Notes: a model not told the origin generated them from the sequence alone. Shown: positions 2,921 to 43,542, numbered from the whole stretch's first letter. The stretch is 63,718 nt of DNA, filler included, from Reclinomonas americana ATCC 50394 (GCA_048213135.1; 8 parts of 4 records of this genome joined end to end with filler, not necessarily neighbours in it), one strand, 5' to 3'. Made by a program: numbers and translations.

Positions 2921-3020
2921 NNNNNNNNNNNNNNNNNNNNNNNNNNNNNNNNNNNNNNNNNNNNTTAATTAATTAANNNNNNNNNNNNNNNNNNNNNNNN
3001 NNNNNNNNNNNNNNNNNNNN
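2921..3020. other. Artificial ~100-nt gap spacer N-TTAATTAATTAA-N (also near 13129, 23318, 25423, 52126, 56484, 62127)
   Basis: An identical 12-mer with stops in all frames sits in the middle of N runs. It is an assembly convention, not genomic DNA. Confidence 0.97.
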
Positions 3021-5176: not shown

Positions 5177-6200
5177 TCACTCGCCCACTAGAGCGCGCAG
5201 TTTCTCCTGATCCACAGCCCGCCGATCAACGCGCGCATCCGCAAGCAGCAACCGCGCAGTGTCCTTGTGGCCAAACTCCACTGCGCGGCGAAGGACCTCG
5301 CTGCCCTTCGTCGCCGGATCGGCTCGCCCGTCGGCCAAAAAGGCAGCGACGACTGCCGCGTGTCCACCAACGACTGCGTCGCGGAGGCAGTGGTAACCGT
5401 GACTGGCCACAAAGGCGTCCATTTTTGACTCGCCGAGGAAGTACTGCACAACATCCACTCGTCCCCGGCGTGCTGCCGCAAAAAGCGGACCGGCATCGGA
5501 GAGGACGACGCGTGGATCCGCAAACAAGAGGCGCACCATTTCCAAATGGCCTTTGTCTGCTGCAGTGGAGAGCGCGTTCTGGGTGGGATCAACACGTCCG
5601 TCCACCAAGAGCAGCTGCACCACGTGCGTAAGGCCTTCGTCGACTGCCCATTCGAGGGCGTAGCCATTTCCGTCGGCCGGGTCCACTTGCGGGTCGGCCA
5701 AGATTTGCCGCACAGCGTCGACCTCGCCGCGCACAGCGACCGCGCGGCACACAAAGTCCGTGTTCAAGCACGCACCGTCCACGCGCGGATCGGCAAGCAG
5801 TACACGCATCACCTCTGTGTATCCCAGTCTCGCAGCGACCTTAAACGCATAGTTGTGGTCGGCCGCTGGATCAACGCGCGGGTCGGCCAGCAGCAAGCGA
5901 AGGCAGTCGATATGCTTGTAGCCGGCCGCGACATACACGGCTTCGTTGTCGTACGTGGCAGGGTCCACGCAGTCGAGAGTGAGGAGGGCGCGGACAACTG
6001 CAGTGTCGCCCAACAAAACGGCTTTGCGAAAGGCCCATTCGAGAGACGAGATCATCTCGGCGCGAAGCTCATCCATGGCCATGTCGACAGTTGCATCTGC
6101 CGGTGGCGGTGGCGAGGGTGGTGCAGGCTTGATCGTAAATGTGAGTGAGTGAGCGAGATAGAGAAGAGGGCAAAGGGAGGTGTGACACACACACACACAC

Positions 6201-6249
<49 letters not shown>

Positions 6250-6270
6250 CACACACACCTGCTCCGACAT
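5177..6270 (-). CDS. Ankyrin-repeat protein (DPRVDP type), ~320 aa, 2 exons (6270-6259, 6127-5177)
   Basis: ATG TCG GAG CAG|GT, (TG)n intron, AG|CCT joins in phase 0 to give MSEQ-PAPPSPPPP.... About 8 repeats of the form A...G...VVRLLLADPRVDP (e.g. AAGYKHIDCLRLLLADPRVDPAADHNYAFKVAARLG). Confidence 0.9.
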
Positions 6271-6914
6271 TTCGTAACCAAGATAAACAAAAATTTGTCT
6301 TGTCGTCCGGCCGGCGCGCGTACGCAGGACCCGCACATCAACTGGTCACCACTGCTGGTGGAAGAGGTGGAGAAGACACCGCGGTGGCGCTGGGTGGACG
6401 AAGGAGTTGCCGTTCACATTGCGCTGGTTGTGGTACAGTACATGTACAGTTTTGCGCATACATACGAAAACGTTCGTTCTGTGAACGAGTTTGTGCTGCG
6501 GAGAAATGCACCGCTGTGCACATCGCATTGTGCAGAATGCGGTAATCCAGAGCTGCTCGCAGCCCAAGCGGCAATCATCCTGATCCGCCGACGTCGATGT
6601 TGACGTCGACGTCGCGATATCGATTGGTTGGACGTGACAACGACATTCACCAACAGACAAGCAACAACTGTCTTGATGACCAAGTTCGCACTTAGCGTAT
6701 GACGCACAGCATTTCCACATCCAATTTTCGGCAAGGCGAAGCCACAACCCTTGTCCGTCTTCTTCCATTTCCCCCTCTCCCTTCTCCCGTTCTCCCTTCA
6801 CCCGCTGCAGAGTTCGGTCTCGTGATGACTCTCTTCCCTCACTTAAAAAAAACGATTAGCAGTGCTACTTCATTCAGGAAACCCCTCCAATCTTCTCTCC
6901 TTTCATCTGTCAGA

Positions 6915-16883
<9,969 letters not shown>

Positions 16884-17468: not shown

Positions 17469-20400
17469 TTACGGAATACCAAGCGCGTAAGAAAAGTCAG
17501 GCATGACTGTGCCGATAATGCGCTCCACAAGCCCGCGAGTGTTTCGACGCATAAGGTGAACCGATGAGCCTGACACTCGAGCCGAGTGAGTGGCACTGAA
17601 TGCCATGCCACCAAATGATGCACCAAGACCTCCCTCCGGGTCCACGAGATCAGCCTGAGCATTATGTGATACTTGCTTGCCACTAGCCAGTGACCATACC
17701 CGCACAGAACCACCATAGCAGCTGCATACAACGCACATGCCATCAGGAGTGACGGATAGATGCCGCACCCATGAATCGTGTCCCTCCAGTCGATGCACTT
17801 CTGCTCCACTCACTAATGACCACACTCGCGCTGAATTGTCATCACTACCGCCAATAACGTGTTGACCATCAGGTGTGACGGCGACGGACAACACTCGGCC
17901 GCGGGGCCAGTTCTCGTCTATCTCTATAGCGATTCGTTGCACTTCTTCGCCACTCGTCAGTGACCACACTCGCACTGTCCTGTCGTCACTTCCACTCACC
18001 ACATGTTGATTGTCGGGAGTGAAGGTGACACAGTTCACCCCGTTAGTGTGCCCCTCAAATCGTCGAACTTCCTCGCCACTCGCCATTGACCACACTCGCA
18101 CTGTATTGTTCCGACTGCTCACAATGTACTGACCATCTGGGGCAGTAGCGACGCAGGTCACTGCATCTGCGTGCCCATCAAATTGTTGCACTTGTCTGTC
18201 ATCTGCAAGAGACCACATCCGCACTTTTGTTTCACGTCCCCAGCTTAGAATGTGCTGTCCATCAGGAGTAAACGCAACACATGTTGCAGTCATAGGGAGC
18301 CGACAAAACCGTGTAACATCTGCAATGTTTTCTGTGCAGCAAACACTCACAGTCCCATCCATGCTTACAATCGCCACATGGCGACCGTCAGCTGATACAG
18401 AAACTGGTAATGGTACATTACTCAGCCCATCAACCTTCCACAACTCGTCACCGTTTGCCACAGAGTACAATCGCACTGCACCATCGTCTCCAGCACAAAA
18501 AAGATGCGCGCCGTCGATGGAGAGCGCAGCGAAATGGATTGTACCTAACTGCACTGCCGAGTGGCGCATCTCTTCACCAACAACAGACCACAAACGCACT
18601 AAATTGTCCCCGCCACCACTGACGATGTACTTGCCATCAGGAGTGACAGCGACAGAGTGGACACCACCAGAATGCCCTTCGATTCGTCGCAGCTGCTGCC
18701 CGGTATCCAATGACCACACTCGAATGGTACTGTCACCTCCACCGCCGCTCACAATATAGTGACTATCTTCCGTGACAGCAACTGACGACACCCACGCAGT
18801 GTGGCCTTCCAGTCGGCGCACCTCGTATCCACTTGCCAATGACCACACTCTCACAGTCTTGTCACCGCTACCGGTTACAGCATGCTGCCCGTCGGAAGTA
18901 ACGACAACTGAACTCACTCGTTGAGTGTGACCCTGCAACTGTCGCACTTCTTGACGAGCATTATGTCCCATGGATATTGACCACACACGCACGCAGTTCT
19001 CGAAAGTGCAACTCAAGAGGTGCTTACCATCTGGTGTTATCGCGACACAGATTGCATGCATGCGTTCAAATCTTGATGTTGTCGACTGTAACACTTCATT
19101 TCCATTCCCCAGACTCTCCAGCGGACAGACTTCCACAGTCCCATTAGACGTAGTAACTATCAAGAAGTCGTGAGAGAACGACACAAACGTAATCAAGTTA
19201 TCCATTTCGCCACTTCTAACTAATTTTCCACGTGGAAGCGTACATACACGAAATGTCCCACCTTGACTCCGACTCACAACACGCCGACCGTCATTTGTAA
19301 TGGACAAAGACGTCACCGGCGACCTATGCTCCGCGATTGGCTTCCTCGGCCACTTCACACCCCTCACATCAGCATCCGTGAAGTCCGCCTCCCTCGCATA
19401 GGCCGTGCACACATTCACCCCTCGCAAATCCGCTCCCCTCCACACCGTCCGATGCATCACTGCATCCCTCAAATCCGCACCCCTCATTCGCACGCCAGAC
19501 AGATCTCGCCCACTGAACGACACTTGTGCCGCACACAACACCGTCGCCGCATTCGAAGCTGCCGTCACCAGTCGCTTCTCATCCACCTCCCGTGACAACT
19601 CAATCACCTCCCACAGTCTCGCTTGCAATCGAGGAGACCGTCGCACCACCTCGGCCATCTGCTCTACCAACGATGGTCTGTCATTCAGCAATCGCACTGC
19701 CAACACATGCTGCTGCACATCCTGCATCGTCAACTTCCTCTCCTCGTCCCACGTCTCCCATGCAAACACATGTCGTGCCACACAGTGCTCCAACAACGAC
19801 AGATGCACGAATCCCCACTGCGTCGTCCCATACCGTCGCACAATCGGACAGCACGCTCGCACATGCTGGTTCTTGTGACCGAGGAACTTGTCAAACGGTC
19901 CCTCCTCCAAGCGTCGCGAGGCGCGTGGTGCACCACCAAAGTCATCCTCCTCTCCGATATCACCTGCTAACCGACTCTCCAGCACAGACACACGCACCAC
20001 ATTCCTTTCATGCATCAATCGTGCCAGTCCCTCACAGAATGCCAGACATGTCTCCTCACTTGGCACACGCTCCGCGCCAAGTCGCGTCTGCCTCTCCTGC
20101 TCCCTCCCAATCCATTGTCGTATAAATCGGTCAAACACGTCACACCGAGTCGGTCGCTGAACGCCACTTGCCACCAACTGCGGCAGCACACGAGCCACCA
20201 CTGCCAGTAGGAACGGATTTGACACCAGTGCATCCAGTCCTTGGACACTCTTCAGTGCACGAATATACTCCTCGGCAGTCGACCATCGCACTTCACCGTC
20301 GCCGTCATCATCACCACCCACTTGCACGAGCCGATCAAAGTACTCCTCAATCTGCTCGTTGTTAAATGGCGCAATGTGTCGCTCTGACAGCTGCTGCATG

Positions 20401-22210
20401 CACAACTGTCCTCGTGCATCCACCGGTGCAAACAACCGTCGATACTGCGCCACTCCACCCAGTGCCGTCAGTGCGTAATCGCCTCGACAGGTGATAATCA
20501 CCTTCACATCGCGACACACATCCAGCTGGTTCTTGACAAACAGATTCACACCACGATACAACTCATCGTATCCGTCAAGCAACAACAGCAACGGCTCCTC
20601 CTTCAGCCGTCGCACATCCGACTCCAATCCTAACTCGGGCGACAGTCGCTCAAGTGCCTCCTCCAACAATCGCTCATCGGCATTTCGCAGTGCGCCGAGA
20701 GGCACACGCACAGGCACTCGTCTGCTCTCTCTCGTCTGCCACTGTCGCCACGCTCGCTCAGCCAGCACCGACATGGTGGTGGTCTTGCCAGCTCCACTGT
20801 TGCCGAACAGCACCAGTACACGGTGGGTGGTGTTGGTGTCGGAGAGAAAGGCATCCACCTCCGTGGACAAATCCGTCATCTTCTCTCTCGAGGAAATGTC
20901 ACGCTCTCGTGAGCACAGCAGTGGCACGTACATCTGCATGTCCTTGCGCACACACTCGTCGTGCTGGTAGAACGAGAGCTCACGCACAGCCAGTCGATGC
21001 AGTCGCTCCTCGAATGTGTCCACGATGTGTCGAGCGTGACGGGCCTCAACGATACGAGCAGTGAATTGAGCTCGCTCGTCAGCCGTCAGCTGCAGTCGCG
21101 AGAGGATGGAGAAGAAGGCACCACTGTCACCGAGGTATTGCTGCACAGTGGTCTCGTTCAACACAAGTCCCTTGTGCGCCAACACGTTCCTCACGTCACG
21201 CAGCTCTTCCACAGCCTTCCGTTCATCAGCACCGTCAATCAACAACTGGCGACCGTCCTCCAGCACAAAGCCACCGAACAGCATGATGGAGGCGAGTGCA
21301 GTCACGTCGAAACCGTCACACGGAGGATCGGATGAGGGGTCAGCGTCAAATGCAGCACGCCACGCCAAGATCAACGTTTGCGCTTCTTTGAAAATATTGA
21401 CAACGCGCCCCGTAACTGGCACATGCATATCGTGCCATGCCTTCACGGCCGCCGCATGCATGGGCTTGGCTGTCGGCACAATGCTGGGCACCCACAACCA
21501 GAAATCGTCGGAGTTGATCCGCGGGGACCAGAGATCCACTGCCCATGCCCGCACATCGAAGTCGGCATGATCACGACTGAATTGCGCCAGTGTGCGTTGA
21601 CAGCGCAGACGCACAGCCTCCTCCACCACCTCAAAGGCCATGTTTATGCGCTGTGAGTTGATCATGCTGTGCGTGCACTCAAACTCAGTCAGTACAGACT
21701 CGCTCAGAGTGGAAGAACAAGGAAGGGAGAGAGGAGGATGACGAAGACAAGCACAACAAACCGAGTCACTCGCTCCGAGTTGCTGTGTGAAGACATGAGA
21801 GTGAGATGCATGTTGTGCACAGAGGGATGATTCACAAACACATGCACCTTCCACTCCCACTCCCTCCACTCGGCCGCAGCGCCGAGCCAAGTGTCAGACG
21901 GACGACGAGATGAGTCGATGAGTTAATGCCGAGATCTTCCAGCTCCAACACATCAGCCTTGGCCATCTTGTATGCTACAGGCTTCTCCACCCCCACAATC
22001 TCCATCTCCCCATCTCCACTCTTCTCACGCAGCAAGCGAGTGGCCTCGCACAGCAAGTCCGCGAGAGTGGACATGGCTGACATGCCCTCCACCACCACCG
22101 ACAGCGATGAATCATGTGCCGCACTCACATTCACAGAAAACTGTGCACAGGCAAGGATGGTGAGCACACACAGGATAAGTGGAGAAGGCATAAACACCAC
22201 ACACCGACAT
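17469..22210 (-). CDS. NLR-like STAND protein A: ubiquitin-like + HEPN + NACHT + pentapeptide + 13 WD40, ~1505 aa; exons 22210-22205, 22140-21848, 21782-21762, 21666-17469
   Basis: Four GT-AG exons total 4518 nt and stay in frame. Motifs: Ubl-like FSVNVS...STLADLL...LEDLGINSSTHLVVRL; FDVTALASI...ELRDVRNVLAH; Walker A GNSGAGKT; Walker B LLLLLDGYDE; FSGRDLSGVRMRGADLRDA; GH...TPDG...SGS.D.TVRVW repeats. Confidence 0.92.
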
Positions 22211-22445
22211 TGTGTGCGTGTGTTCTGTTCTCAGTCGTGTTTCTCACAAATTCCTGTCAATGAAGTTGTCATGGACTTGGTGGGTTTCTTTGGTGGGCAC
22301 CAACCCGCAGGGAAAGGGGGAAAGGAGGGGTTGCTGCGAGAATGCCACACTGAGTTCCACCACCTCGGATGCCCCGGGCCCATCTCCTTTTTTTCAAAGC
22401 TGATGGGCTTGAGACTTTCTTTCGTCGCCTCCCTGCAATCCGCCT

Positions 22446-27373
<4,928 letters not shown>

Positions 27374-28269
27374 CTGCAACGAGGAACAAAGAGTGAGGTG
27401 GGGGAGAAAGGTGAGAAAGGGAAGGGCAGAGCGAGAGAGAGAGAGAGATGGAGAACGAATGAGAGAAAGAAGAGTGAAAAAGCGAACAAGAGAGGAGGGA
27501 GTGGAGGGGTAGGAATAAGTGCAAGAACGAGAGACAAAGGTGCATGAGTGGGAGAAGAGAGAACGAGGAGAGAATACAAGAAGAGGAGAGGAGAGAGACA
27601 GTGAGCCTGTGAGAGTGTGCAAATGAGAGAGAGGGAGAGAGAGACTGAGAGAGAGAAAGAGAAAGAGAGAGAAAACTTAGGAGAGATGGAAGAGTGAAAA
27701 GCGTGCGAGAGAGCAGAGAGTGGAGGGGTAGGATTAGGAGCGTGTGCACGAGCAGAGTGCAAGGATGAGAGACAAAGGTAGAAAGAATGAGGAGAGAGAC
27801 AGTGAGTACGTGCAAGAGTGTGCACGAGTGACGAAGGGAGAAAGAGACAGAGAGACAGAGAGTGCGTCAGAGAGGAAATAGTGAGAAACGGAGAAAGAAT
27901 GACACAATGAAACAAATGAGATTGATAATCACAATGCGTGCATATGCGTGCGCACGAGTGTGTGCGCGCGTGCGTGTGAGAGAGAGTGAGAAGAACACAG
28001 CGCGCAACTGCACACGAGAGAGAATGCAACACGCACGAACATCGGATTAATCACCCCTTCTCTTCCCCTTTTCCTNNNNNNNNNNNNNNNNNNNNGCCCT
28101 TTTCTCTCTCTCTCTTCCCCTTTTCCTCTCCTCCTCCTCTCCTCCCCTTCTCTCCTCAACTCTTCTTGATGTTCCACCCGAGCATCGCTTGCAGAAACAC
28201 GCCAGGTTTGACAACCTTATTGACAGGAATTTGTGTGAAACACGACTGAGAACAGAACACACGCACACA

Positions 28270-31200
28270 ATGTCGGTGTGTGGTGTTTATGCCTTCTCCA
28301 CTTATCCTGTGTGTGCTCACCATCCTTGCCTGTGCACAGTTTTCTGTGAATGTGAGCGCGGCGCATGATTCGTCACTTTCGGTGGTTGTGGAGGGCATGT
28401 CGGCGATGTCCACTCTCGCGGACTTGCTGCGCGAGGCCACACGCTTGCTGCGCGAGAAGAGTGGAGATGAACAGATGGAGATTATCGGAGTGGAGAAGCC
28501 GAGTGCATTCGACTTGGAGGACGTGGGCGAGTTGAAGTTGAAATCACTCGGCATTAACTCGTCCACTCATCTCGTCGTCCGTGTGACACTTGGCGTGGCG
28601 CTGCAGTCGAGTGGAGGGAGTGGGAGTGAGAGTGGAAGGTGTGTTTGCGAATCATCTCTCTGCGCCAAGCATGCAGCTCACTCTCATGTCGTCGCACAGC
28701 AACTCAGAGCGAGTGACTCGGTTTGTTCTGCTTGCCTTCGTCCTTTTCTCCCCTGGTTGTTCTTCGTGCGATGCGAGTCTGTGCTAAATATGTGCTAAAT
28801 ATGTGTGTGTGCACACATGCAGCATGATCAACTTCAATCGAATCTGCATGGCCTTTGAGGTAGCGGAGGAGGCTGTGCGTCTGCGCTGTCGACGCGCGTT
28901 GGCCCAGTTCAGTCGCGATAATCCCGACTTTGATGTGCGGGCGTGGGTGCCGAGTTTCACGCCTACTGGCATGGATGCGGCGGCAGTGAAGGCATGGCGT
29001 GAGCGACATGCTCCACTCCACCCCGGACGAGTCAAGATGTTTGAGGAGAAGCAGCCTGTGGCGTTGGCCTGGCGTGCTGCCTTTGACAGCGACCCCTCGT
29101 CCGACCCTCGGTGCGACGGATTCGACACGACGGCACTCACCTCCATTATTCTGTATGGTGGCTTCGTTCATGATGACGGTCGCAAGATGCTGCTGATTGA
29201 CGATGTTGATGAACGCAAGGCAGTGGAGGAGCTGCACGGTGTCAGGAACAAGCTGAGACACGATGAGTTGCCGTTGACGGATGCCAGTGTGCAGGAGTAC
29301 CTTGGTGACTGTGGGGTCTTTCTCTCCATCCTCTCTCGACTGCAGTTGTCGGCTGATGAGCGAGCTCGATTCTCTGCTCGTATCTGTGAGGCACGTCACG
29401 TCCAGCACATTATCAGCACATTCGAGGAGCGACTGCATCGATTGGCTGTGCGTGAGGTCTCCTTCTACCAGCACGACGAGAGTGTGCGCAAGGACATGCA
29501 GATGTATGTGCCACTACTGTGCTCACGTGAGCGCGATGTTTCCGCGAGAGACAAGATGATGGATCTGTTGACGGAGGTGGATGCCTTCCTCTCCGACAAG
29601 AACACCACGCACCGTGTGCTGGTGCTCTTTGGCAACAGCGGAGCGGGCAAGACCACCACCATGTCAGTGCTGGCTGAGCGAGCATGGCGACAATGTCATA
29701 CGGGAGAAAGCAGACGAGTGCCTATGCGTGTGCCTCTTGGTGCTCTGCGCAATGCCGATGAGCGATTGTTGGAGGAGGCATTGGAGCGACTGTCACCCGA
29801 GTTAGGTTTGGAGTCGGATGTGCGACGATTGAAAGAGGAACCACTGCTGTTATTGCTTGACGGGTACGATGAGTTGTACCGTGGTGTGAATCTGTTTGTC
29901 AAGAACCAGCTGGATGTGTGTCGCGATGTCAAGGTGATTATCACCTGTCGTGGCGATTATGCGCTGACGGCACTGGGTGGCNNNNNNNNNNNNNNNNNNN
30001 NTCTCCGACACAGACACACGAACCACATTCCTCTCGTGCATCAACCGTGCCAGTCCCTCACAGAATGAGAGACACACCTCCTCACTCGGCACACGCTCCG
30101 CACCAAGACGCGTCTGCCTCTCTTGCTCCCTCACAATCCACTGTCGAATGAATCGGTCAAACACATCGCACCGAGTCGGTCGCTGCACACCACTCGCCAC
30201 CAACTGTGGCAACACATGAGCCACCACTGCCAGCAGGAATGGATTCGACACCAGTGCATCCAGTCCATGTACACTCTTCAGTGCACGAATGTACTCATCG
30301 GCAGTCGACCACCGCACTTCACCATCGTCATCACCCACATGTACCAGTCGCTCGAAGTATTCTTCAATCTGCTCCGTGTTGAACGGAGCAATGTGTCGCT
30401 CCATCAGCTGCTGCATGCACAACTGTCCCCGTGCGTCCACCGGCGCAAAGTACCGTCGATACTGCGTCACNNNNNNNNNNNNNNNNNNNNNNNNNNNNNN
30501 NNNNNNNNNNNNNNNNNNNNNNNNNNNNNNNNNNNNNNNNNNNNNNNNNNNNNNNNNNNNNNNNNNNNNNNNNNNNNNNNNNNNNNNNNNNNNNNNNNNN
30601 NNNNNNNNNNNNNNNNNNNNNNNNNNNNNNNNNNNNNNNNNNNNNNNNNNNNNNNNNNNNNNNNNNNNNNNNNNNNNNNNNNNNNNNNNNNNNNNNNNNN
30701 NNNNNNNNNNNNNNNNNNNNNNNNNNNNNNNNNNNNNNNNNNNNNNNNNNNNNNNNNNNNNNNNNNNNNNNNNNNNNNNNNNNNNNNNNNNNNNNNNNNN
30801 NNNNNNNNNNNNNNNNNNNNNNNNNNNNNNNNNNNNNNNNNNNNNNNNNNNNNNNNNNNNNNNNNNNNNNNNNNNNNNNNNNNNNNNNNNNNNNNNNNNN
30901 NNNNNNNNNNNNNNNNNNNNNNNNNNNNNNNNNNNNNNNNNNNNNNNNNNNNNNNNNNNNNNNNNNNNNNNNNNNNNNNNNNNNNNNNNNNNNNNNNNNN
31001 NNNNNNNNNNNNNNNNNNNNNNNNNNNNNNNNNNNNNNNNNNNNNNNNNNNNNNNNNNNNNNNNNNNNNNNNNNNNNNNNNNNNNNNNNNNNNNNNNNNN
31101 NNNNNNNNNNNNNNNNNNNNNNNNNNNNNNNNNNNNNNNNNNNNNNNNNNNNNNNNNNNNNNNNNNNNNNNNNNNNNNNNNNNNNNNNNNNNNNNNNNNN

Positions 31201-34031
31201 NNNNNNNNNNNNNNNNNNNNNNNNNNNNNNNNNNNNNNNNNNNNNNNNNNNNNNNNNNNNNNNNNNNNNNNNNNNNNNNNNNNNNNNNNNNNNNNNNNNN
31301 NNNNNNNNNNNNNNNNNNNNNNNNNNNNNNNNNNNNNNNNNNNNNNNNNNNNNNNNNNNNNNNNNNNNNNNNNNNNNNNNNNNNNNNNNNNNNNNNNNNN
31401 NNNNNNNNNNNNNNNNNNNNNNNNNNNNNNNNNNNNNNNNNNNNNNGTCAATCAAGTGAGGATGACTTTGGCGGCGCTCCACTCGACCGTCGACGAGTGG
31501 AAGATGGACCGTTTGACAAGTTCCTCGGACACAAGAACCAGCATGTGCGAGTGTGCTGTCCAATTGTGCGACGGTATGGGACGACGCAGTGGGGATTCGT
31601 GCATCTGTCGTTGCTGGAGCACTGTGTGGCACGGCATGTGTTTGCGTGGGAGACGTGGGACGAAGAGAGGAGATTGACGATAGAAGATGTGCAGCAGCAT
31701 GTGTTGGCAGTGCGACTGCTGAATGATCGACCATCGCTGGTGGAGCAGATGGCCGAGGTGGTGCGACGGTCTCTTGCATTGCAAGCGAGGTTGTGGGAGG
31801 TAATTTATTTGTCTCGCGTGGAGGATGACGATCGAGTGGTGACGGCGGCGGCGAATGCAGCGACGGTGTTGTGTGTGGCACAAGTGTCGTTCAGTGGGCG
31901 AGATCTGTCGGGTGTGCGAGTGAGAGGTGCGGATTTGAGGGATGCGGTGATGCACCGGACGGTGTGGAGGGGAGCGGATCTGCGAGGAGTGAATGTGTGC
32001 ATGGCATATGCGAGGGAGGCAGATTTCAGGGGTGCTGAGGTGGCGGGTGTGAAGTGGCCGAGAAAACCGATGGAGGGGCACACTGAATATGTGACTTCTG
32101 TCGCCATTACACCCGATGGCCAGCATGTTGTGAGTGGCAGTGAGGACAAGACTGTACGGGTGTGGTCGCTGGCAAGTGGCGTGGAGGTGCACCGACTGGA
32201 AGGCCACACGGGTTGGGTGACTGCAGTGGCTGTAACACCTGATGGCAAGCTCATTGTTAGTGGCAGTCGGGACGAGACTGTACGGGTGTGGTCGGTGGCA
32301 AGTGGCGAGGAGGTGCGCCGACTGGAAGGTCACACGAGTTGGGTGTCTGCAGTGGCAGTGACACCGGATGGCCAGCTTGTTGTGAGTGGCAGTGGGGACA
32401 AGACAGTGCGAGTGTGGTCGGTGGCAAGTGGCGAGGAGGTGCGCCGACTGAAAGGCCACGCTAGAGGGGTGAGTGCGGTGGCAGTGACACCCGATGGCCA
32501 GCACATTGTATGTGGCAGTTGGGACGGGACTGTACGAGTGTGGTCAGTGGCGAATGGAGAAGAAGTACGACGACAGGAGGGACACACGAGTGGGGTGTGG
32601 GCAGTGACAGTGACACCCGATGGCCAGCTCATCGTGAGTGGGAGTGATGACAAGACCGTGCGAGTGTGGTCACTGGCGAATGGAGATGAAGTGCGACGGT
32701 TCGATGGGCACACTGCCGCAGTATACACTGTCGCCGTCACTCCCGATGGGCAGCACGTCGTCAGCGGGAGTGAGGACTTGACTGTGCGGGTTTGGTCACT
32801 AGTGAGTGGCGAAGAAGTGCGGCGGTTGGAGGGACACACTGGTCCGTTGCATTCAATCAAGATTACTCCTGATGGTCAGTATATCGTGAGTGGGAGTGCA
32901 GATATGACAGTGCGAATGTGGCCTGTGATAGGTGATGAAGACGTACGACGGCTGGGTGGACACACCGAAGTGGTGCATTCAGTTGTGCTCACCCACGATT
33001 GTCAGCATGCTGTGAGTGCCGGTGATGACGGCACGGTGAGAATGTGGTCTGTGTCAACAGGCGAGGAACTGTGGAAGGTGGCAGGACAGTCCTCCGAGTT
33101 TGCTGTTTCTCCAGATGGTCAAATTGCTGTGAGTGGGAGTGAGGACGGGTCTATTCTGGTGTGGTCGTTGGTTCGTGGAGAAGAAGTGCGACGATTCGAG
33201 GGGCACGATGGTTATGTAATGTGTGTTGCCGTCACTTCCAATGGTCAGTACATTGTCAGCGGAGGCTGTGACAAGACAGTGCGAGTGTGGTCATTGGTGA
33301 GTGGAGAAGAGTTGCGGCGGTTGGAAGGACACACTGGAAGGGTGACATGTGTTGTCGTAGCTCCTGATGGTAAGCATATTGTGAGCGGAGGTGGACACGG
33401 GACGGTGCGAGTGTGGTCATCAGCGAGTGGAGAAGAAGTGCGACTGTTGAGGGGACACGCTTTCAGTGTGAACTCCGTCGTTGTCACTCCTGATGGTCAG
33501 CACATCGTTAGCGGGAGTTATGACAGCACAGTACGAGTGTGGTCACTGGCAAGCGGGGAGGAGATGCGCCGACTGGAGGGACACACTGGATTTGTGCAGT
33601 CTGTTGCCGTCACTCCTGATGGTCTGCACGTCGTAAGTGGGAGTCGGGACGGTACGATACGAGTGTGGTCACTGGCGAGTGCTGAGAAGATGCGCCGACT
33701 GGTACACACTGACAGTGTGAAGTCTGTCGACGTCACTCCCGATGGCCAGTACATCGCGAGCTTCAGTGGTCACGGAGAAGTACGGGTGTGGTCACTGTCG
33801 ACTGGAAAAGAAGTGCCTCTTGATGAGCAAGCGGATCTAGTGAACCCCTCAGCGGAACGTGTGACTTATCTTCGCTGCATGGCGTACGGTTCTGCGTTCT
33901 CCGCCCGTGTGTCCGGCAAGAGGATCTTTCTGATGCATCGAAACACCCGCGGGCTTGTGGAACGTATTCTCGGCACCGTCTTGCCCGACTTTACCAACGC
34001 GCTTGGTGCTTTGAGTGGCGTCGCACCTTGA
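28270..34031 (+). CDS. NLR-like STAND protein B: ubiquitin-like + HEPN + NACHT + pentapeptide + 14 WD40; exons 28270-28275, 28340-28638, 28700-28720, 28823-34031 (interrupted by gaps and a flipped contig)
   Basis: Same exon structure and phases as paralog A. Motifs: FDTTALTSII...ELHGVRNKLRH; GNSGAGKT; LLLLLDGYDE; pentapeptide block; 14 WD40 units, mostly 42 aa (126 nt), at ~32070-33815. Confidence 0.92.
30002..30470 (-). other. Mis-oriented contig carrying the missing middle of gene B's NACHT region
   Basis: Reverse complement reads VTQYRRYFAPVDARGQLCMQQ...NVVRVSVSE. This continues ALTALGG (ending 29981) and, by alignment to paralog A, precedes EDDFGGAP (~31458). N gaps on both sides. Confidence 0.9.
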
Positions 34032-37395: not shown

Positions 37396-40300
37396 TTCTG
37401 CTGCTGCGGGCACCGCACCGACGACAATGACATCCTCACCGCCCTCCACGGCCCCGGCGGCCGCCGCACCAGCCAACCCGCCGTCCTCTCCCCGCAAGCC
37501 GCCCGCACCAGTCCCGTCGCCAACAGCAGCGGCGGCGGACGCGGCCGCGGCCGCAAGAGACCACTCTCTTTCCGCCAGTCGGCCTCCAGCCCCCGCTCAC
37601 TCCGTCCCGTCGACTGGCTCGCCCTGCCGCCCTCCACCATCCGCATGCGATTAGCGGCCCTGCGAATCGAGCGCTGGTGGTTGCAGCTGCTCGAGGAGCT
37701 GCGCACGGCCGGCTCATCGTCGCAACTGTTGCGTCACTGGTTGGCCAAAGGTGTGATGATTTTTCTTCTGACTTTTGTATTTGCAGTCACCGGAGACGAT
37801 CCGCCGCGCTGACCATCACTGTCGCCTGGCGCCACCGGCTGATGAGCAAGCGCGTGCACAGAAGAAGAGCAGCGGGCGTCATTGCCAATGCGTACCGCTG
37901 GCACCTCTTTCGCCGATCGGTGCAGCGCATCAGTTGCGTTCTCGCCCCCCGCACGGCAAAGACTGCGTGATGCTCACCCTGTCGCGCAGAGCAAATGTTC
38001 TCGGCTCGTCGACTCGTGCTGCAAGAAATACTACAATCCGAGGAGCAATACGTGAACAATCTGCGCATGTTGCTGGAGGTTTGGATGCGCCGAGGAAGGG
38101 CAGGGAATCTATGACTTGCGTGTATTGATCAATCCGCAGCTGTTTCACGAACCGCTGCTGCGACTGGACCGCGCCGGTCGCCCGCTGCTGCCGCTGGACA
38201 AGATCGCCGTCATCTTCTCCAACGTGCAGGACATTTTGCACTTGAACATGACGCTGCGCAGTCATTTGGCGGCGCGGCTGCCGTTTGTCACTACGCGAGC
38301 GTGGCAGAGTGGGAAGCCGTCGGTGGCGGGGGTGTTTTTGCAGGCGGTGAGTGGATCGAAAAGGGGAAGGGGGAGGGGAGGGGAAGAAGAAAGAAGAGGG
38401 AAGCGAAGGAGGAGGGACGGCGAGAGACAAAGTTGGAGGGTGGCATGGAGGCTGGGCAAAAGAATGAGGGAGAGAGAGCGAGAGAGAAAGAGAAAGAGAG
38501 AGAGGCAGAGGTTGTAAGAAGAGGATAATGCAAGAGGAAGAATAGAACATAGAGAGGGACACGAATGAGGTTTAGGAACTCCGCTTTCTCTACAGGTTTC
38601 CTTGCTGTTCTCTCCTCACCTTTATCACTCTTCCTCCTCTCTTTTCCTCCTGTCTCTCTCCTCCTCCTCTCTTTTTCCTCCTGTCTCTCTCTTTCTCACT
38701 CGCTCTTTCGCTCTCTCTCTTCTCCTCCTCTCTCTCTCTTCTCCGGTCTCTCTCCTCCTCTCTCTCTCTCCTTCTCTCTCTCCTCCTCTCTCTCTCTCTC
38801 TCCTCCTCCTCTCTCTCTTTCTCTCTCCCTCTCTCTCTTTCTCTCGCTCTTTCCTCCTCCTGTCTCTCTCTCCTCCTCCTCTCTTTCTCGTCCTCTCTCT
38901 CTCTTCCCTCTCATTCTCGCCAGATGCATCTCTGTTCTTTCCTTCTCCTCACCTCTGTTCTCTTGTCTCCTCACCTCTGTTCTCCCCCTCTCCCCTCCTC
39001 CTCACCTCTCCTCTCCCCCACGCAGGTCTCCAACCTGACGCAATACGCCGACTACGTCGCCCGCTCGGAGAACGCCGTCGCCATGCTGGATCAGTGTCGT
39101 TCGAAGTACACTCAGTTTGCGCGATTCCTGGAGGTTTGCGCCGTTCGTGTTCTGCTGTCTCGTATCAAAGCTCACTTTCTGCACAACAACAGGAGACGAG
39201 CCACTCACCTGAACTGGCCGGTCGGCCTCTCGAAAGTCTGCTGATTGTGCCGGTGCAGAGATTGCCCCGCTACATTCTGCTACTCGAGGTTTGTGTCACT
39301 TATTTCACATGGCTTGCGCTATTCAATTGCTCTCTCTCTCTCTCTCTCACTCTCTCACCACTGCTCCACAAATGCCATCTCCTGCTGCACTTTTATCTGT
39401 TTGTCTCCTTTGTTTCTCTCATCCTTTTCTCTCACAGGCCGTTTCTCTCCTCGTCCTCTGCTCCTTGTGATTCACTCTCGTCTGTACTGATTGATTCTCT
39501 CTACTCCCGGTGCCACATTTGTGTGCTCTTCTCCGTCCCGCCGCTAATTGTTCTCTTCTTTTGCATTTTTCTCTTTCTTTCATTCCTTTCTCTTTCCCTC
39601 TCCTTCAATCTCATTCTCTGTGTCTCTTTCTATTTTTCTCTGTCTCGCTCTCTCAGCCGACTTTTTTCTTTCCTTTTCATTTCCACCGTTCCCTCTTCGC
39701 CCCCTTCCCCTTCCCCTTCCCCTTCGACTTCGACTTCCACTTCTCACTCTCCATCCCCTTCCCTCCCTTCCCTCCATTCCCCTTCTCTTCTGTTCCCCTT
39801 CCCCATCACCTTCCCCATCACCTTTCCCTCTTTGCCCCCTTCTCCTTCCCCTTCCCCTTCCCCTTCCCCTTCACCCTCCCCTCATGCCCCCTTTCCCCTC
39901 CCAGGACCTTCTGAAGCGCACCCCCGACTTCCACGAGGACTACCTCCCCCTCCAAGAACTCATCCCCAAGATGCGCGAACTCACCCTCTTTGTCAACGTG
40001 CGCACTGGCGAAGTGGAAAACGTGTACGCCGCGCTCACTCTCATGAAGAAGCTTCACAACTTTAACCCGGCAGTTGAGTGTTTCTCCCTACTTCCCTCGC
40101 TATGCTGCATCTCTCTTATCATCATCATGTCACAGACCGTCTTCTCTCCATCCTCCGTGGTGCTGGTGGACGGCTTCCTGGCTCTTCGCGGCGACATGGA
40201 GTCACTCGGCATCACCGAGGCATCGCTCGTGCCACTGCAGCTGAACGGCGATAGCGACGACGACGAGAGCGGCTCCGATGATGAGAGTGATGTGGAGCGG

Positions 40301-40574
40301 ACGGATGAGGGACACGCAGGGCTGGACCAAGTGCGTCTCGCCCTCGCGTCACCGCTCTCCCCGCAGCCGTCGACACCGGTTTCTGGTTTGTTAGTGGGGC
40401 GAATCAACTTCTCCGTTAATCTCTCTCTCTCTCTCTTTCTCTCTCTCTTCTCTCCTCTCTCTTTCTCTCTCTCTTCTCTCCTCTCTCTTTCTCTCTCTTT
40501 CTTTCTGTCTCTGTCTCTCTCTTTCTTTCTTTCTTCTCCCACTGTCTCTCTGTCTCTCTCTCTCTTTCTTCTCC

Positions 40575-40613
<39 letters not shown>

Positions 40614-40988
40614 ACCATGTCTCTTGCATTCTCTTTTCTGTTCTTTTCTTCTGCTCCCGCACGCTCTTTCCTTCTCCATGTCTCTGTCCCCTTCACTCTC
40701 TCTCTCTCTCTCTCTCTGGCCATGTTTCTATCTCTTCCTTTCACTCTTCTTGTGTCTCTCTAATTCTCTCTCTCTCTCTCTCTCTCTTTGTCTCTTTGTC
40801 TCTTCAATTTTCGCTGTTCCTCGTTGTATGTGTGTCTCTCAGCCTCTCTTTGTCTCTGCCTCTTTCATTCATTTCTCTCTCTCTCTTCTTTGTTTCTCTT
40901 TCTTTTTTCTCTTTGTATGTGTGTCTCTCTTTCTCTCTCCCATTCTTTCTCTCTTCTCCTCTCTTCTCTCATTCTCTTCTCTCTTTCT

Positions 40989-41019
<31 letters not shown>

Positions 41020-43542
41020 TTCATTTTCTGTGTCCCTCTCTCTCTGCAAGTGTGTGTCTCTGTCTTTCTCTCGCACAAGTTGCCTTTCTTTCCCTCTGTC
41101 TCTTCTTCTCTTTCTTTTCCCACTCTGCCTCTCTCTTTCATTCTCTTGCTTTCTCTCAGTTTCTCTCTTTTGTTCCTTTTCTTCCTTTTTTTTCTTTCTC
41201 CTGTTGCATATGTGTGTGTCTCTCAGTCTCTCTTCTTTATTTCTCTTCTTTTCCCTCTGTCTCTCACTTCTTCTCTTCCTTTCTCACTCTGCCTCTCTCA
41301 GTCTCTCACATTCTTTCTCTCATTTCTCATTCCCATCTCCCCCCTATCACCCTCCCCCTTTCCCTCTTCTCTCTTTGCCTCTGTCCCTTATTCACCCCCT
41401 TCTCCTTTTCTCCTCCCCTTTGCCTTTGCCAGAAAAAGCCCCCTCCCCCAGCCCGCTCCCCCCCGCCGCCTTCTCGCCCGTCCCCCTCTCCCCGCTCCTC
41501 CCCGCACCGCCAGCCCCCGCCTCCTCCTCCTACCTCGGCACGCGCGGATTCGACATTGCCATTGCGACCCCCAGTCCCATCTCCGCTGCGCAGGGCGACG
41601 TGGGCACCAGCGACTCACCACACTCGCGCCACCGCGGCACCATGCGCTCCCGCAATCGTGCCGCCAAGAGCATCCTCGTGCAGGGCCTGTTGAATCTGCG
41701 CGAGCGCTCGGGCATGCTCGGCGATGTGCGACGTGGGTGCGTTTTTTTAGCAAATCAAGTCGCTGTTATTGTCTTTTTTTCGCTCACCTTTCCCCCTTTT
41801 TTGTGTAGCACCGTGTCTCGCTCCCACCACCGCAGCTCATCGGTCGATGTCGACCAGCTGGCACTGGAGAGCGCTGGTCGGCAACCGGGAACCACTCCCA
41901 TTCGTCGGCATTCGCGCCTCCAGAGCGACATTCGCATCCTGGACGACGACGACGACGACGATGACTTGATGATGACAATGGACGACAATGCCGACGTGAT
42001 GCTCATTGACAATGCAGACGCGGAGCGACTGGCGATCCTGGCCACGGGACCGCAACGCCGTCGCGCAAGTCTGTCGCCAATGACGGACGGATTGCAGGCG
42101 CAGCAGCTGCAGCAGTTGCAACAACAACTACAGCAGGCTCAACCTGCATCCTCATCGATGACGACGACCACCACCACTACTACCGCGTCGCCGTTGCCCA
42201 CCGGCGCTGCCGCACAGGCCCCGCGTGAGCTCGGCGTGAGTCGCATTCACATGTTTGAGGATGCCGCCGAGTCGGAGACGTACTTTGACGGCGACAGCGA
42301 GGACGGCACGTCGCCCGACGAGGGCGCAGTGGTCACCATCAATCAGCTGGCACGTCGCGATGCCGCCGAATCGCTCTCACCGCAAGGCTCGCAGTCGGCC
42401 AGCGACGGCGCGCCGAATTCGCCAATGTTCTCGCCGCCGGCTCTGCCGCCACCACCGCCGCCCATGCAACTGCAGGGGTCGCGTCCGCAGTCGGCACAGG
42501 CACCGCCGCCAGCGTCTTCATCTTCATCCTCCATTGGTCCGTCGAATGTGCGCCCCCCTCCCCTCCACATGCCCGTCGGCAGCGGGACCGCCAGCGACTC
42601 GTCCGAGCCCACCTCGCCCGTGTCGCCGCGCCGACGCACCGTGGCCATTGTGGCCCCCACCAACCCCAACAGCGGCAACGCCAGCAAGCCACCGACCACA
42701 CCGCGTGGCTCACGACCGGCGCCCGGTCGCTTGGAGGGACGTCGCGAGAGTGTCGTGCTGCAGGCGGCTGCCAGCTCGTCCAACCTGCGTGGTTTGTTTT
42801 TCCTGCAAGAGTGAGGGTGGCTGAACGAGAGATCTAACAGCGCACTCCCAGATCTCTCCAAGCAAGTGGCCTCCAGCTCGGTGAACGCCAAGCACCGCCG
42901 TTTCCTTGTCCTGTTGGACAATGCACTGGTGGTGGCGCGCATCAAGTCGTCGCCGTTTTCGACGCAGCTGCAGGTGACGCATCAGTATCCGACGGTGGGA
43001 ATGCAGGTGTCCACGCTGGCGGTTGATGGTGAGAAGAGGGGAAAGGGAAGGGAGGAAGAGAGGGGAAGATAAAGAGAAAAGGCGTGAGTGAGAAGAGAAA
43101 AAGAAGGGTGCCTGTCCATCGAGTGACAGATGAAAGTGGATCGCTGGGTGACCGGTTGCACTGGAGAGAGAGAGAGAGGAGGGAGAGTAGAAATGCGCAG
43201 GGGGAGCGAAAGAGAGAAGGTGTGTGAGAGAGAGGGAGAGAGGGAGAGAAGGTGTGTGAGCGAGAGGCTACGAGAGAGGCGTTCGAGAGAATGGAAAAGA
43301 AGGGAGCTTCTCCATCCGCAGTACATTGGGAAGCCGAGTGAGAGATGAAGGGCGGATTGCTCGGTAACGGTTGTCACTGGAGGGAGAGAAGATGTGTAAG
43401 AGAGAGGGAGAGTAGAAACACACAGAGAGAGCGAAAGAGAGAAGGCGTGAGTGAGAATGGAAAAGAAGGGAGCCTCTCTATCCGCAGTAGATGGGAAACC
43501 GAGTGAGAGGTGAAGGGTGGATTGCTCGGCAACGATTGTCTT

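What the first reader, a model, noticed from the sequence alone, without database searches (positions are those of the whole stretch)
17469..34031. Divergent pair of Ubl-HEPN-NACHT-pentapeptide-WD40 genes: candidate RNase-effector NLR immune system in a microbial eukaryote
Seen: two paralogs in head-to-head orientation about 6 kb apart, with identical four-exon structure. Each has intact Walker A (GNSGAGKT) and Walker B (LLLLLDGYDE) motifs and an N-terminal helical region with FD[VT]TAL..I followed by RNVLAH or RNKLRH. Established: RxxxxH is the catalytic motif of HEPN ribonucleases (the FDxT.L...RN..aH pattern resembles DZIP3/Swt1-like HEPNs fused to STAND NTPases). HEPNs act as dimers, and NACHT-WD40 proteins such as Podospora HET-E are non-self sensors that oligomerise. 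Inference: ligand binding by the WD40 propellers oligomerises the NACHT domain and activates RNA cleavage or cell suicide. I do not recognise this five-domain combination from a described protein, but novelty is unverified.
Basis: partly seen in the sequence, partly recalled or inferred. Interest (0 to 1): 0.9.

Follow-up and report, generated by a model that had tools for sequence, protein, structure and literature searches.

The report
Two HEPN-NACHT-WD40 immune-receptor-like genes
Two diverged copies of a eukaryotic gene join a probable RNA-cutting HEPN domain to a NACHT switch and a WD40 sensor, a receptor design already described in corals, oysters and bacteria, so this is an unusual new example and not a new kind of system.

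Summary
Both genes and all the quoted motifs are in the sequence. Pfam confirms NACHT, a short pentapeptide stretch and about 14 WD40 repeats. The region before NACHT has no sequence relative (0 hits among 1.84 billion proteins), and its structure prediction failed. It does match a profile of 49 bacterial Swt1-like HEPN domains: hhalign probability 85%, P 5.8e-6. None of 100 shuffles or 33 real control windows reached that score. The match aligns the helix-2 Asp and the R-N-x3-H motif. Pfam scores it below threshold and plain HMMER does not lift it above window background. I put a HEPN fold at about 0.8.

The "Ubl" exon is coding and beta-rich, but no ubiquitin-like fold was found. My gene model has three coding exons, not four, and there is no RNA evidence.

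The window is a stitched draft. The two genes are separated by two artificial N44-TTAATTAATTAA-N44 joins, and a 469-base contig inside gene 2 is flipped. The head-to-head layout and the 6 kb spacing are therefore not secure.

HEPN-NACHT fusions have been in print since 2013, so this is a new variant of a known kind. The mechanism (ligand binding, then NACHT oligomerisation, then paired HEPN RNase) is inferred.

The parts
17469..22210 (-). Gene 1, whole coding span in my model (1498 codons before the stop): exon 1 22205-22210, intron 22141-22204 (64 nt), exon 2 21848-22140, intron 21667-21847 (181 nt), exon 3 17469-21666
   Evidence: Splice sites are inferred from GT..AG, the reading frame and the indel pattern. 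There is no RNA evidence.
21848..22140 (-).
   Evidence: dN/dS 0.38 with dS 0.35 against gene 2, and only a 2-codon indel. AF2 pLDDT 60.6 with strand-strand-helix-strands order. No Pfam hit. No ubiquitin-like fold match.
21099..21326 (-). Gene 1 HEPN-like core: residues 106-181 counted from MAFEVV, the part aligned to bacterial Swt1-like HEPN domains. It covers helix 2 with Asp112, an insert, helix 3 ending in RNVLAH, and helix 4.
   Evidence: hhalign. Pfam PF18731 scores 18.0 bits, E 0.0037, below the 27.5 cut-off. Atlas look-ups.
21174..21191 (-). R-N-V-L-A-H (Rx4H) of gene 1
   Evidence: Aligned to the invariant R-N-x-W-A-H of the bacterial family.
20466..20822 (-). Gene 1 NACHT P-loop domain (Pfam match), with Walker A at 20781-20804 and Walker B at 20562-20591
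   Evidence: PF05729, E 1.8e-10, 41.4 bits against a cut-off of 26.7. Motif coordinates.
19356..19562 (-). Gene 1 pentapeptide-repeat stretch between the NACHT-associated helical region and the WD40 array
   Evidence: PF00805, E 3.5e-8, 33.3 bits against 20.2. The same stretch is present in relatives P0003-P0005.
17691..19355 (-). Gene 1 WD40 array, about 13-14 repeats; the first ones are degenerate
   Evidence: TRF finds no array here at score 80.
17472..17690 (-). Gene 1 conserved C-terminal tail (73 residues), unassigned
   Evidence: dN/dS 0.22 against gene 2
28270..29981 (+). Gene 2, first part: exon 1 28270-28275, intron 28276-28339, exon 2 28340-28638, intron 28639-28822, exon 3 from 28823. 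HEPN-like core about 29109-29342, with FDTTAL at 29121-29138 and RNKLRH at 29244-29261. Walker A at 29631-29654, Walker B at 29844-29873.
   Evidence: gene 2 alone: score 35.6, P 2.6e-5
30002..30470 (-). Gene 2 NACHT continuation, on a 469-base contig that lies flipped between two gaps (29982-30001 and 30471-31446)
   Evidence: In one search, tblastn places gene-1 mid-part residues 122-272 at 30470 down to 30027, at 89% identity.
31447..34031 (+). Gene 2, last part: end of the NACHT-associated region, pentapeptide stretch about 31845-32051, 14 WD40 repeats 32052-33794, tail 33795-34028, stop 34029-34031
   Evidence: TRF finds period 126 nt, 5.8 copies at 79% matches (32109-32839) and 4.8 copies at 71% (33159-33754).
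22211..28269 (.). Spacer between the two start codons: CT/GA microsatellites, two artificial contig joins (23274-23373, 25379-25478) and a 20-N gap (28076-28095). Homology between the two gene copies starts about 22270 and 28210.

Best explanation
These are two diverged paralogs of an NLR-like STAND receptor gene in a eukaryote.

Each encodes, in order:
- a small beta-rich N-terminal domain of unassigned fold;
- a very divergent HEPN domain of the Swt1/DZIP3 type, with the helix-2 Asp and an intact R-N-x3-H;
- a NACHT NTPase with intact Walker A and B;
- a short pentapeptide-repeat beta-helix;
- about 14 WD40 repeats, enough for two seven-bladed propellers;
- a conserved 75-residue tail.

Shown here: the domains, the motifs, purifying selection on every part, and much greater divergence of the WD40 sensor than of the NACHT core.

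Inferred: a ligand bound by the propellers releases NACHT for nucleotide-dependent oligomerisation. This brings the N-terminal HEPN domains into pairs, which form composite RNase sites. RNA cleavage then blocks an invader or kills or arrests the cell.
For: Domains:
- NACHT, Pentapeptide and WD40 are above Pfam cut-offs.
- Motifs are intact in both copies.

HEPN:
- Pfam PF18731 is the only HEPN family listed, and it falls on the Rx4H helix in both copies (E 0.0037 and 0.026).
- hhalign of the two-copy alignment against 49 bacterial PF18731 domains gives probability 85.4%, P 5.8e-6, score 40.0 over 72 columns. Asp112 aligns to the family's conserved Asp, and R151-N152-H156 aligns to its R-N-x3-H.
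- Each copy scores alone: 35.0 and 35.6.
- 0 of 100 column shuffles (maximum 22.3) and 0 of 33 real 270-residue control windows (maximum 15.8) reach these scores. An earlier run with a narrower family gave 0 of 150 shuffles and 0 of 33 windows.
- The Atlas look-up independently ranks HEPN_DZIP3 and HEPN_Swt1 clusters first (0.81, 0.80).
- The AF2 secondary structure puts the motif at the end of a helix (H141-156; low confidence). Per PMC3710099, that is where HEPN carries it.

Selection (dN/dS between copies):
- HEPN core 0.33
- N-terminal exon 0.38
- NACHT 0.04-0.10

Amino-acid identity between copies:
- NACHT 91-97%
- N-terminal exon-3 region (HEPN included) 73%
- WD40 49%

Gene 2's WD40 units are 79-82% alike at DNA level over the first six.

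Context:
- Relatives of the NACHT-pentapeptide-WD40 core carry other N-termini. None of the control windows drawn from them resembles HEPN. This is the swappable-effector pattern of NLR-like proteins.
- HEPN as an N-terminal effector of NACHT/STAND is documented in animals and bacteria (PMC3710099, PMC8260672, PMC9646362, 10.1101/2022.07.19.500537; passages read).
Against: - The Pfam match is below the gathering score (18.0 and 15.2 bits against 27.5).
- HEPN_DZIP3 is not listed even at E <= 10.
- Plain HMMER with a 29-sequence bacterial HMM does not separate the genes from window background. Gene 1 scores 11.0 bits and ranks 2 of 913 frames, behind an unrelated frame at 62389-62703 with 11.2 bits. 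Gene 2 scores 5.7 bits and ranks 5.
- The hhalign family was picked with the same Pfam model that gave the weak hit, so these two lines are not independent.
- The N-terminal half of the HEPN profile (helix 1) is not aligned.
- Atlas scores are under 0.9, a level that shuffled proteins reach a third of the time.
- The structure model of the region is unusable (pLDDT 37.3), so the four-helix fold is not shown.
- There are no homologs in which to test conservation of R and H beyond the two copies.
- There is no expression, splicing, activity or ligand evidence.
- Some HEPN lineages (eukaryotic Swt1) are inactive RNA binders.
- Immune function is inferred from architecture only.
Confidence: 0.55

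Rival explanations
1. The helical region before NACHT is not a working RNase. Either it is a HEPN-derived RNA-binding or adaptor domain, as in eukaryotic Swt1, or it is an unrelated helical bundle with a chance R-x4-H. The receptor would then signal by another route, for example through the beta-rich N-terminal domain or by recruiting partners.
For: Pfam is below threshold and HEPN_DZIP3 is absent from the list. HMMER does not lift the genes above window background. The fold is not shown. Helix 1 is not aligned. PMC3710099 states that Swt1's own HEPN is probably inactive.
Against: All catalytic positions (Asp, R, N, H) are present in both copies despite 27% amino-acid divergence of the region. 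The hhalign score stands far above both kinds of control. The best-matching bacterial versions are the ones called active in PMC3710099.
Confidence: 0.2
2. The genes are not pathogen sensors. They would serve self/non-self recognition between cells, like fungal HET-E/NWD genes, or serve as an internal stress or cell-death scaffold.
For: NACHT-WD40 with internally conserved, fast-diverging WD40 units is the hallmark of fungal NWD incompatibility genes (recalled knowledge). The WD40 arrays are 49% identical against 91-97% for NACHT. Gene 2's units are 79-82% alike at DNA level. The nearest NACHT relatives include a Mortierellomycota fungus.
Against: No HET domain is listed by Pfam at E <= 1. RNase effectors on STAND receptors are linked in the literature mostly with antiviral or anti-transposon roles (PMC3710099, PMC8195603). 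Nothing here discriminates between the two readings.
Confidence: 0.15
3. The pair is partly an assembly product. Gene 2 may be a broken copy, or the two copies may be divergent haplotypes or unlinked paralogs brought together by scaffolding.
For: Artificial joins and gaps lie between and inside the genes, and one contig is flipped.
Against: Every sequenced part of gene 2 keeps an open frame and has dN/dS below 0.4. Flipping the 469-base piece restores the gene order seen in gene 1. dS of 0.3-0.6, and above 1.3 in WD40, is high for alleles.
Confidence: 0.1

Closest known systems
DZIP3/hRUL138-like and CXorf38-like HEPN-NACHT proteins of cnidarians, molluscs and cephalochordates, with an expansion of DZIP3-type HEPN in Capsaspora (Anantharaman et al. 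2013, PMC3710099; PMC8260672; PMC9646362; passages read)
   Same: N-terminal HEPN with Rx4H (Asn after Arg), followed by NACHT, then a repeat sensor. WD40, TPR and LRR are all reported on NACHT proteins in these genomes. They occur as multi-copy, fast-diverging families and are read as RNase-effector immune receptors.
   Different: Here Pfam's DZIP3 model does not list the domain at all. The only family signal is to Swt1-like HEPN. No sequence homolog of the domain was found in 1.84 billion proteins. There is a pentapeptide stretch before the WD40 array and an extra beta-rich N-terminal exon. Whether those papers show HEPN, NACHT and WD40 in one protein I could not see, because figures and supplements were not available to me.
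Bacterial Swt1-like HEPN domains (Pfam PF18731; Ava_2192-type HEPN-AAA+ proteins and HEPN-STAND-TPR proteins listed in PMC3710099)
   Same: This is the best profile match, with shared Asp in helix 2 and R-N-x3-H at the end of helix 3. The domain sits N-terminal to an NTPase.
   Different: In the 401 genomes searched, the bacterial domains sit mostly in open frames of about 1100 residues, and I did not examine the rest of those frames. Similarity to ours covers only helices 2-4 and is below HMMER significance.
NACHT-pentapeptide-WD40 proteins, e.g. Linnemannia gamsii hypothetical protein (P0003) and two unnamed metagenome or run-assembly proteins (P0004, P0005)
   Same: Same NACHT, helical region, pentapeptide stretch and WD40 array. 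They are 28% identical over 88-98% of the 521-residue query region, with E 7.5e-38 to 7.2e-28.
   Different: Their N-terminal regions are different or absent, and their control windows gave no HEPN-like signal.
RNase L and Ire1 (KEN-type HEPN RNases)
   Same: This is a working analogy only: a repeat or ligand-sensing part drives dimerisation or oligomerisation, which assembles the HEPN RNase site (textbook knowledge; KEN is classified as HEPN in PMC3710099).
   Different: They have a kinase or pseudokinase scaffold instead of NACHT, a permuted KEN domain, and no sequence relation was tested here.
Fungal NWD/HET-E NACHT-WD40 genes and bacterial bNACHT proteins (10.1101/2022.07.19.500537, passages read)
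   Same: NACHT with beta-propeller or pentapeptide sensors and swappable N-terminal effectors. HEPN is named among the bNACHT effectors.
   Different: HET-E carries a HET domain, which is not found here. The bNACHT proteins are prokaryotic and intronless.

Membership tests
HEPN superfamily | Rx4-6H motif with a polar residue (N/D/H) after Arg | tested here: met
   RNVLAH in gene 1 and RNKLRH in gene 2. Criterion taken from PMC3710099.
HEPN superfamily | Conserved acidic residue in helix 2, near the motif | tested here: met
   The Asp of FD[VT]TAL aligns to the conserved Asp of 49 bacterial Swt1-like domains.
HEPN superfamily | Four-helix up-down bundle with the motif at the end of helix 3 | tested here: inconclusive
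   The AF2 model has pLDDT 37.3. Its DSSP gives helices 63-100, 113-122, 141-156 (ending exactly at the His) and 163-182. The model is too weak for a fold search.
HEPN superfamily | Significant profile similarity to a recognised HEPN family | tested here: met
   hhalign probability 85.4%, P 5.8e-6. 0 of 100 shuffles and 0 of 33 real control windows reach the score.
HEPN superfamily | Metal-independent RNase activity dependent on R and H | not testable with these tools
   Needs a bench assay.
Pfam HEPN_Swt1 (PF18731) | Score at or above the gathering cut-off of 27.5 bits | tested here: not met
   18.0 bits (E 0.0037) and 15.2 bits (E 0.026). A home-made 29-sequence HMM gave 11.0 and 5.7 bits, not above window background.
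Pfam HEPN_DZIP3 (PF18738) | Any listed match | tested here: not met
   Not listed at E <= 10 (HMMER's filters drop most matches above about 0.1). Only Atlas leads at 0.76-0.81 point to it.
NACHT NTPase (STAND) | Pfam PF05729 above cut-off, with Walker A GxxxxGK[ST] and a Walker B acidic stretch | tested here: met
   41.4 and 37.0 bits against 26.7. GNSGAGKT and LLLLLDGYDE are in both genes.
Pentapeptide repeat | Pfam PF00805 above cut-off | tested here: met
   33.3 bits against 20.2 in gene 1. The gene 2 stretch was not scanned, and I assign it from the 87% identity with gene 1 over that region.
WD40 beta-propeller | Repeated WD40 units, 7 per propeller | tested here: met
   PF00400, E 4.2e-81. 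14 units of 39-42 residues in gene 2 and about 13-14 in gene 1. The propeller count is inferred.
Ubiquitin-like (beta-grasp) domain | Sequence or fold match to a ubiquitin-like family | tested here: inconclusive
   No Pfam family at E <= 1. For the model with pLDDT 60.6, Foldseek gives 0 matches at E <= 0.001. The VIA-align best is Z 5.6, with no ubiquitin-like entry among the 50 rows shown. The strand-strand-helix-strands order is compatible with beta-grasp but not specific to it.
Animal NLR in the strict sense (NACHT plus LRR) | C-terminal leucine-rich repeats | tested here: not met
   The C-terminal part is WD40. No LRR family is among the 25 of 63 families that Pfam showed, so absence rests on reading the repeats.
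Fungal HET-E/NWD | N-terminal HET domain | tested here: not met
   No HET family was listed at E <= 1 for the N-terminal 762 residues.

The most novel reading that the evidence does not exclude
The two copies may work as a matched pair, as head-to-head paired NLRs do in plants. They would be co-regulated from a shared divergent promoter. Their first 120 bases of homology (5' leader, mini-exon and first intron) are 118 of 120 identical, against 86-88% in the coding arms. They would co-assemble into one oligomer in which HEPN domains from the two paralogs form heterodimeric RNase sites. One copy would carry a regular, fast-renewing WD40 sensor and the other a degenerate one acting as helper. This would be a sensor/helper RNase resistosome in a unicellular eukaryote.
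Probability: 0.08. Interest if true: 0.65.

Novelty: new variant of a known kind. Interest (0 to 1): 0.35.

Why it matters
If the HEPN domain is active, this is an RNase-armed NACHT receptor outside animals and bacteria, with an effector so diverged that standard annotation misses it. That bears on two questions: how widely NLR-like receptors with enzymatic "kill" domains occur among eukaryotes, and how often effector domains are overlooked in protist genomes.

It does not open a new principle. HEPN-NACHT fusions, WD40 and pentapeptide sensors, and oligomerisation-activated HEPN RNases are all described already.

Tried and rejected
- Whole genome: not held.
- Earlier findings of this scan: none for this genome or sequence. 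One bacterial note came up by words and has no bearing.
- Homologs of the N-terminal 270 residues: none among 2616 candidates of 764-2433 residues, and 0 hits at E <= 0.001 in 1.84 billion representatives. I did not repeat it, so one protein search was left unused.
- PDB sequence-profile search with the two-copy alignment: 0 at E <= 10.
- AF2 of the N-terminal 270 residues with a two-sequence alignment: pLDDT 37.3, not used for a fold search.
- Ubl exon: Foldseek and VIA-align gave no ubiquitin-like row.
- HMMER with a narrow bacterial HEPN model: not above window background.
- RNA evidence: no RNA holder listed. The three DNA runs laid on 28200-32100 gave no contig at all, so neither the gaps nor the flipped piece could be checked.
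I give only the units printed and TRF's DNA figures.
- Complex prediction was not used, because with a monomer pLDDT of 37 a dimer model would not be informative.
- Taxon of the organism: not determined. The other frames scanned gave only ankyrin and RhoGEF.
- Literature: searches for HEPN+NACHT+WD40 (12 papers hold all terms, 8 listed) and for 'pentapeptide repeat'+NACHT+WD40 (5 papers) turned up no paper describing HEPN-NACHT-pentapeptide-WD40 in one eukaryotic protein. Supplements and figures, which hold the architecture tables, were not seen.

Full report
WHAT IS IN THE SEQUENCE

The window is a draft eukaryotic scaffold with 31 runs of N. Some gaps are sized. Some are 20 N. Ten sites have the form N44-TTAATTAATTAA-N44, an artificial contig join with stops in all frames.

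Gene 1 is an uninterrupted frame of 1474 codons on the minus strand, 17469-21893.

Gene 2 lies on the plus strand but comes in pieces:
- 28788-29981 carries the N-terminal region and the start of NACHT.
- A 20-N gap follows.
- A 469-base contig (30002-30470) encodes the next part of NACHT on the opposite strand.
- A 976-N gap follows.
- 31447-34031 carries the rest.

Flipping the small contig would restore the order seen in gene 1, so I read this as a scaffolding error, not a broken gene.

The arms are 86-88% complementary at DNA level.

Two artificial joins (23274-23373 and 25379-25478) and a 20-N gap (28076-28095) lie between the genes. The assembly demonstrably mis-orients at least one contig nearby. 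The head-to-head arrangement and the 6 kb spacing are therefore plausible but not established.

GENE MODEL

I aligned the two 5' regions and looked for splice sites. The model has three coding exons in both genes:
- A 6-base first exon (ATG plus one codon), followed by GT.
- A 64-base pyrimidine-rich intron ending in CAG.
- A second exon of 293 bases (gene 1) or 299 bases (gene 2).
- An intron of 181 or 184 bases, AG|GTGCAT or AG|GTGTGT at the donor and CAG at the acceptor.
- The large exon.

Support for the model:
- The second exon has no frame-breaking indel, and its dN/dS is 0.38.
- The second intron has indels of 1, 2, 5 and 13 bases.

No RNA run holds the locus, so the model is inferred. 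I did not find a fourth exon. An alternative without the first intron would start at an ATG inside it and give a hydrophobic, signal-peptide-like N-terminus. I cannot exclude that.

DOMAINS THAT ARE SECURE

Pfam places the following:
- NACHT above its cut-off in both genes: 41.4 and 37.0 bits against 26.7.
- Pentapeptide repeats: 33.3 bits against 20.2.
- WD40: E 4.2e-81.

Gene 2 has 14 regular WD40 units of 39-42 residues. Their DNA is 79-82% alike over the first six units (period 126). Gene 1 has about 13-14 units, the first ones degenerate, and TRF finds no array there. Both genes end in a conserved tail of about 75 residues.

A search with the NACHT-to-pentapeptide region found three true relatives, at 28% identity and E 7.5e-38 to 7.2e-28. 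One is a Mortierellomycota fungal protein. All three have the same NACHT-pentapeptide-WD40 core but different or missing N-termini.

THE HEPN QUESTION

The 270 residues before Walker A have no detectable relative:
- None among 2616 candidates.
- 0 hits in 1.84 billion representatives.
- Nothing in PDB sequences.

AF2 on the two-copy alignment failed (pLDDT 37.3).

Three lines of evidence nevertheless point to HEPN.

1. Pfam's only HEPN-family hit is HEPN_Swt1, on the Rx4H helix. It scores E 0.0037 and 0.026, below the gathering score.

2. The protein-language-model Atlas ranks HEPN_DZIP3 and HEPN_Swt1 clusters first, at 0.76-0.81. By the tool's own calibration this is a lead only.

3. A profile-profile comparison. 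I collected PF18731 domains from bacterial genomes, where 72 of 401 genomes of one phylum had a match.
- I used 29 of the 30 best loci. L012 was dropped for a stop codon in the flank.
- I added 20 more divergent members. For three of these I kept the longest stop-free segment.
- I compared profiles with hhalign.
- Against the 49-sequence family, the two-copy alignment gives probability 85.4%, P 5.8e-6, score 40.0 over 72 columns (residues 106-181).
- The Asp of FDVTAL lands on the family's conserved Asp. R-N-x3-H lands on its R-N-x-W-A-H. The following helix is aligned too.
- Each copy alone scores 35.0 and 35.6.
- Controls: 100 column shuffles reach at most 22.3. The 33 real 270-residue windows, taken from the rest of gene 1 and from the three relatives, reach at most 15.8.
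- The narrower 29-sequence family gave 33.7, with 0 of 150 shuffles reaching it, and 32.5 and 26.2 for the single copies against a maximum of 21.6 in 33 windows.

Evidence on the other side:
- A plain HMMER model of the 29 sequences does not lift the genes above the window's own background. Gene 1 ranks 2 of 913 frames with 11.0 bits, behind an unrelated frame with 11.2 bits. Gene 2 ranks 5.
- Helix 1 is not aligned.
- The bacterial set was chosen with the same Pfam model that gave the weak hit.
- HEPN_DZIP3 itself is not listed by Pfam.

Weighing all this, I put a HEPN fold at about 0.8 and a catalytically competent one at about 0.6.

THE "UBL"

The second exon is coding and predicted as strand-strand-helix-strands (pLDDT 60.6, pTM 0.49). 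Pfam finds nothing. Foldseek finds nothing at E <= 0.001. VIA-align's best is Z 5.6, and the rows it shows are unrelated folds. The label is unconfirmed, and the test is inconclusive because the model is weak.

HOW THE COPIES DIFFER

| Region | Amino-acid identity | dN/dS | dS |
|---|---|---|---|
| NACHT | 91-97% | 0.04-0.10 | 0.41-0.51 |
| Region up to the pentapeptide stretch | 87% | 0.23 | 0.31 |
| N-terminal region with HEPN | 73% | 0.28-0.33 | 0.57-0.61 |
| WD40 array | 49% | 0.26 | 1.7 (1.4-2.3 by half), saturated |

The first 120 bases of homology (22143-22262 and 28218-28337) are 118 of 120 identical. Identity therefore falls from the 5' end to the 3' end. That fits gene conversion at the 5' end, shuffling of WD40 units, or both. 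A conserved switch beside a fast-changing sensor is the usual pattern of NLR-like families.

MECHANISM

Shown: the domain order, intact NTPase and HEPN motifs, and selective constraint.

Inferred from what is known of STAND proteins and HEPN RNases:
- The propellers, perhaps together with the pentapeptide helix, hold the protein off until a ligand binds.
- NACHT then oligomerises.
- The N-terminal HEPN domains pair and cut RNA.

HEPN nucleases need two domains to form a site. RNase L and Ire1 are switched on in this way (textbook knowledge; KEN is classed as HEPN in PMC3710099). Recent bacterial examples of oligomerisation-activated HEPN immune RNases appeared in the search listing. For those I saw only titles and the start of the abstracts.

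COMPARISON WITH WHAT IS KNOWN

- Anantharaman et al. 2013 (PMC3710099; Table 1 and the text passages returned by paper reading's find mode) list DZIP3/hRUL138 HEPN fused to NACHT, CARD, Death, LRR, TPR and others, with expansions in Nematostella, oyster and Capsaspora. They also list CXorf38 HEPN fused to NACHT, and bacterial HEPN-STAND-TPR proteins.
- PMC8260672 reports 17-83 DZIP3-HEPN-NACHT proteins per anthozoan genome (passages).
- PMC9646362 reports more than 50 in a pearl oyster, with TPR or WD40 on NACHT proteins (passages).
- The bNACHT preprint names HEPN among effectors, and pentapeptide repeats and beta-propellers among sensors (passages).

The principle is therefore in print. Three things are particular here:
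- The extreme divergence of the HEPN domain.
- Its attachment to a NACHT-pentapeptide-WD40 core otherwise seen with other heads.
- The extra N-terminal exon.

My two literature searches found no paper describing this exact combination. Figures and supplements were not available to me.

VERDICT

This is a real pair of NLR-like genes with a probable HEPN RNase head. It is a new variant of a known kind and of moderate interest. The layout claims need a better assembly, and the Ubl and four-exon claims are not supported.

Noticed in passing
window 23274-23373, 25379-25478 and eight more sites (2921-3020, 13085-13184, 52082-52181, 56440-56539, 62083-62182): Gaps of the form N44 + TTAATTAATTAA + N44 (100 bases) are artificial contig joins with stop codons in all six frames. 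Order and orientation across them may be arbitrary.
   Followed up: partly
window 30002-30470: This 469-base contig between two gaps encodes the middle of gene 2's NACHT on the wrong strand. It is probably a scaffolding inversion.
   Followed up: partly
window 22143-22262 and 28218-28337: The 5' leader, mini-exon and first intron are 118 of 120 bases identical between the copies (90 of 90 in the middle), far above the 86-88% of the coding arms. This suggests a gene-conversion tract or a constrained regulatory or uORF element.
   Followed up: partly
window 22141-22204 and 28276-28339: If the 64-base first intron is retained, the first ATG opens a 32-codon upstream frame. A second ATG inside the intron would then give the protein a hydrophobic, signal-peptide-like start.
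   Followed up: no
window 17472-19355 against 32052-34028: Synonymous divergence in the WD40 part (dS 1.4-2.3) is several times that of the N-terminal and NACHT parts (0.3-0.6). The two halves of the genes therefore have different histories.
   Followed up: partly
window 23193-23270, 25479-25582, 25785-26126: Long CT/GA microsatellites sit at contig ends in the spacer between the genes. The assembly evidently broke at them.
   Followed up: no
window 5177-6337 (-), 38569-40065 (+): Neighbouring frames carry ankyrin repeats (E 9.6e-37) and a RhoGEF fragment (E 1.9e-7). Seven of the 10 large frames scanned have no Pfam family at E <= 0.001; the remaining one gives only a weak EPS8-type match below its cut-off.
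   Followed up: no
window 38000-42000: There is strong negative GC and AT skew (down to -0.39 and -0.54) over a 1088-codon frame (39548-42814) that has no Pfam match. Possibly a low-complexity coding region.
   Followed up: no
loci L006-L035 (unnamed bacterial genomes): HEPN_Swt1 domains occur in 72 of 401 genomes sampled from one bacterial phylum. They mostly sit at the start of open frames of about 1100-1200 residues.
   Followed up: no
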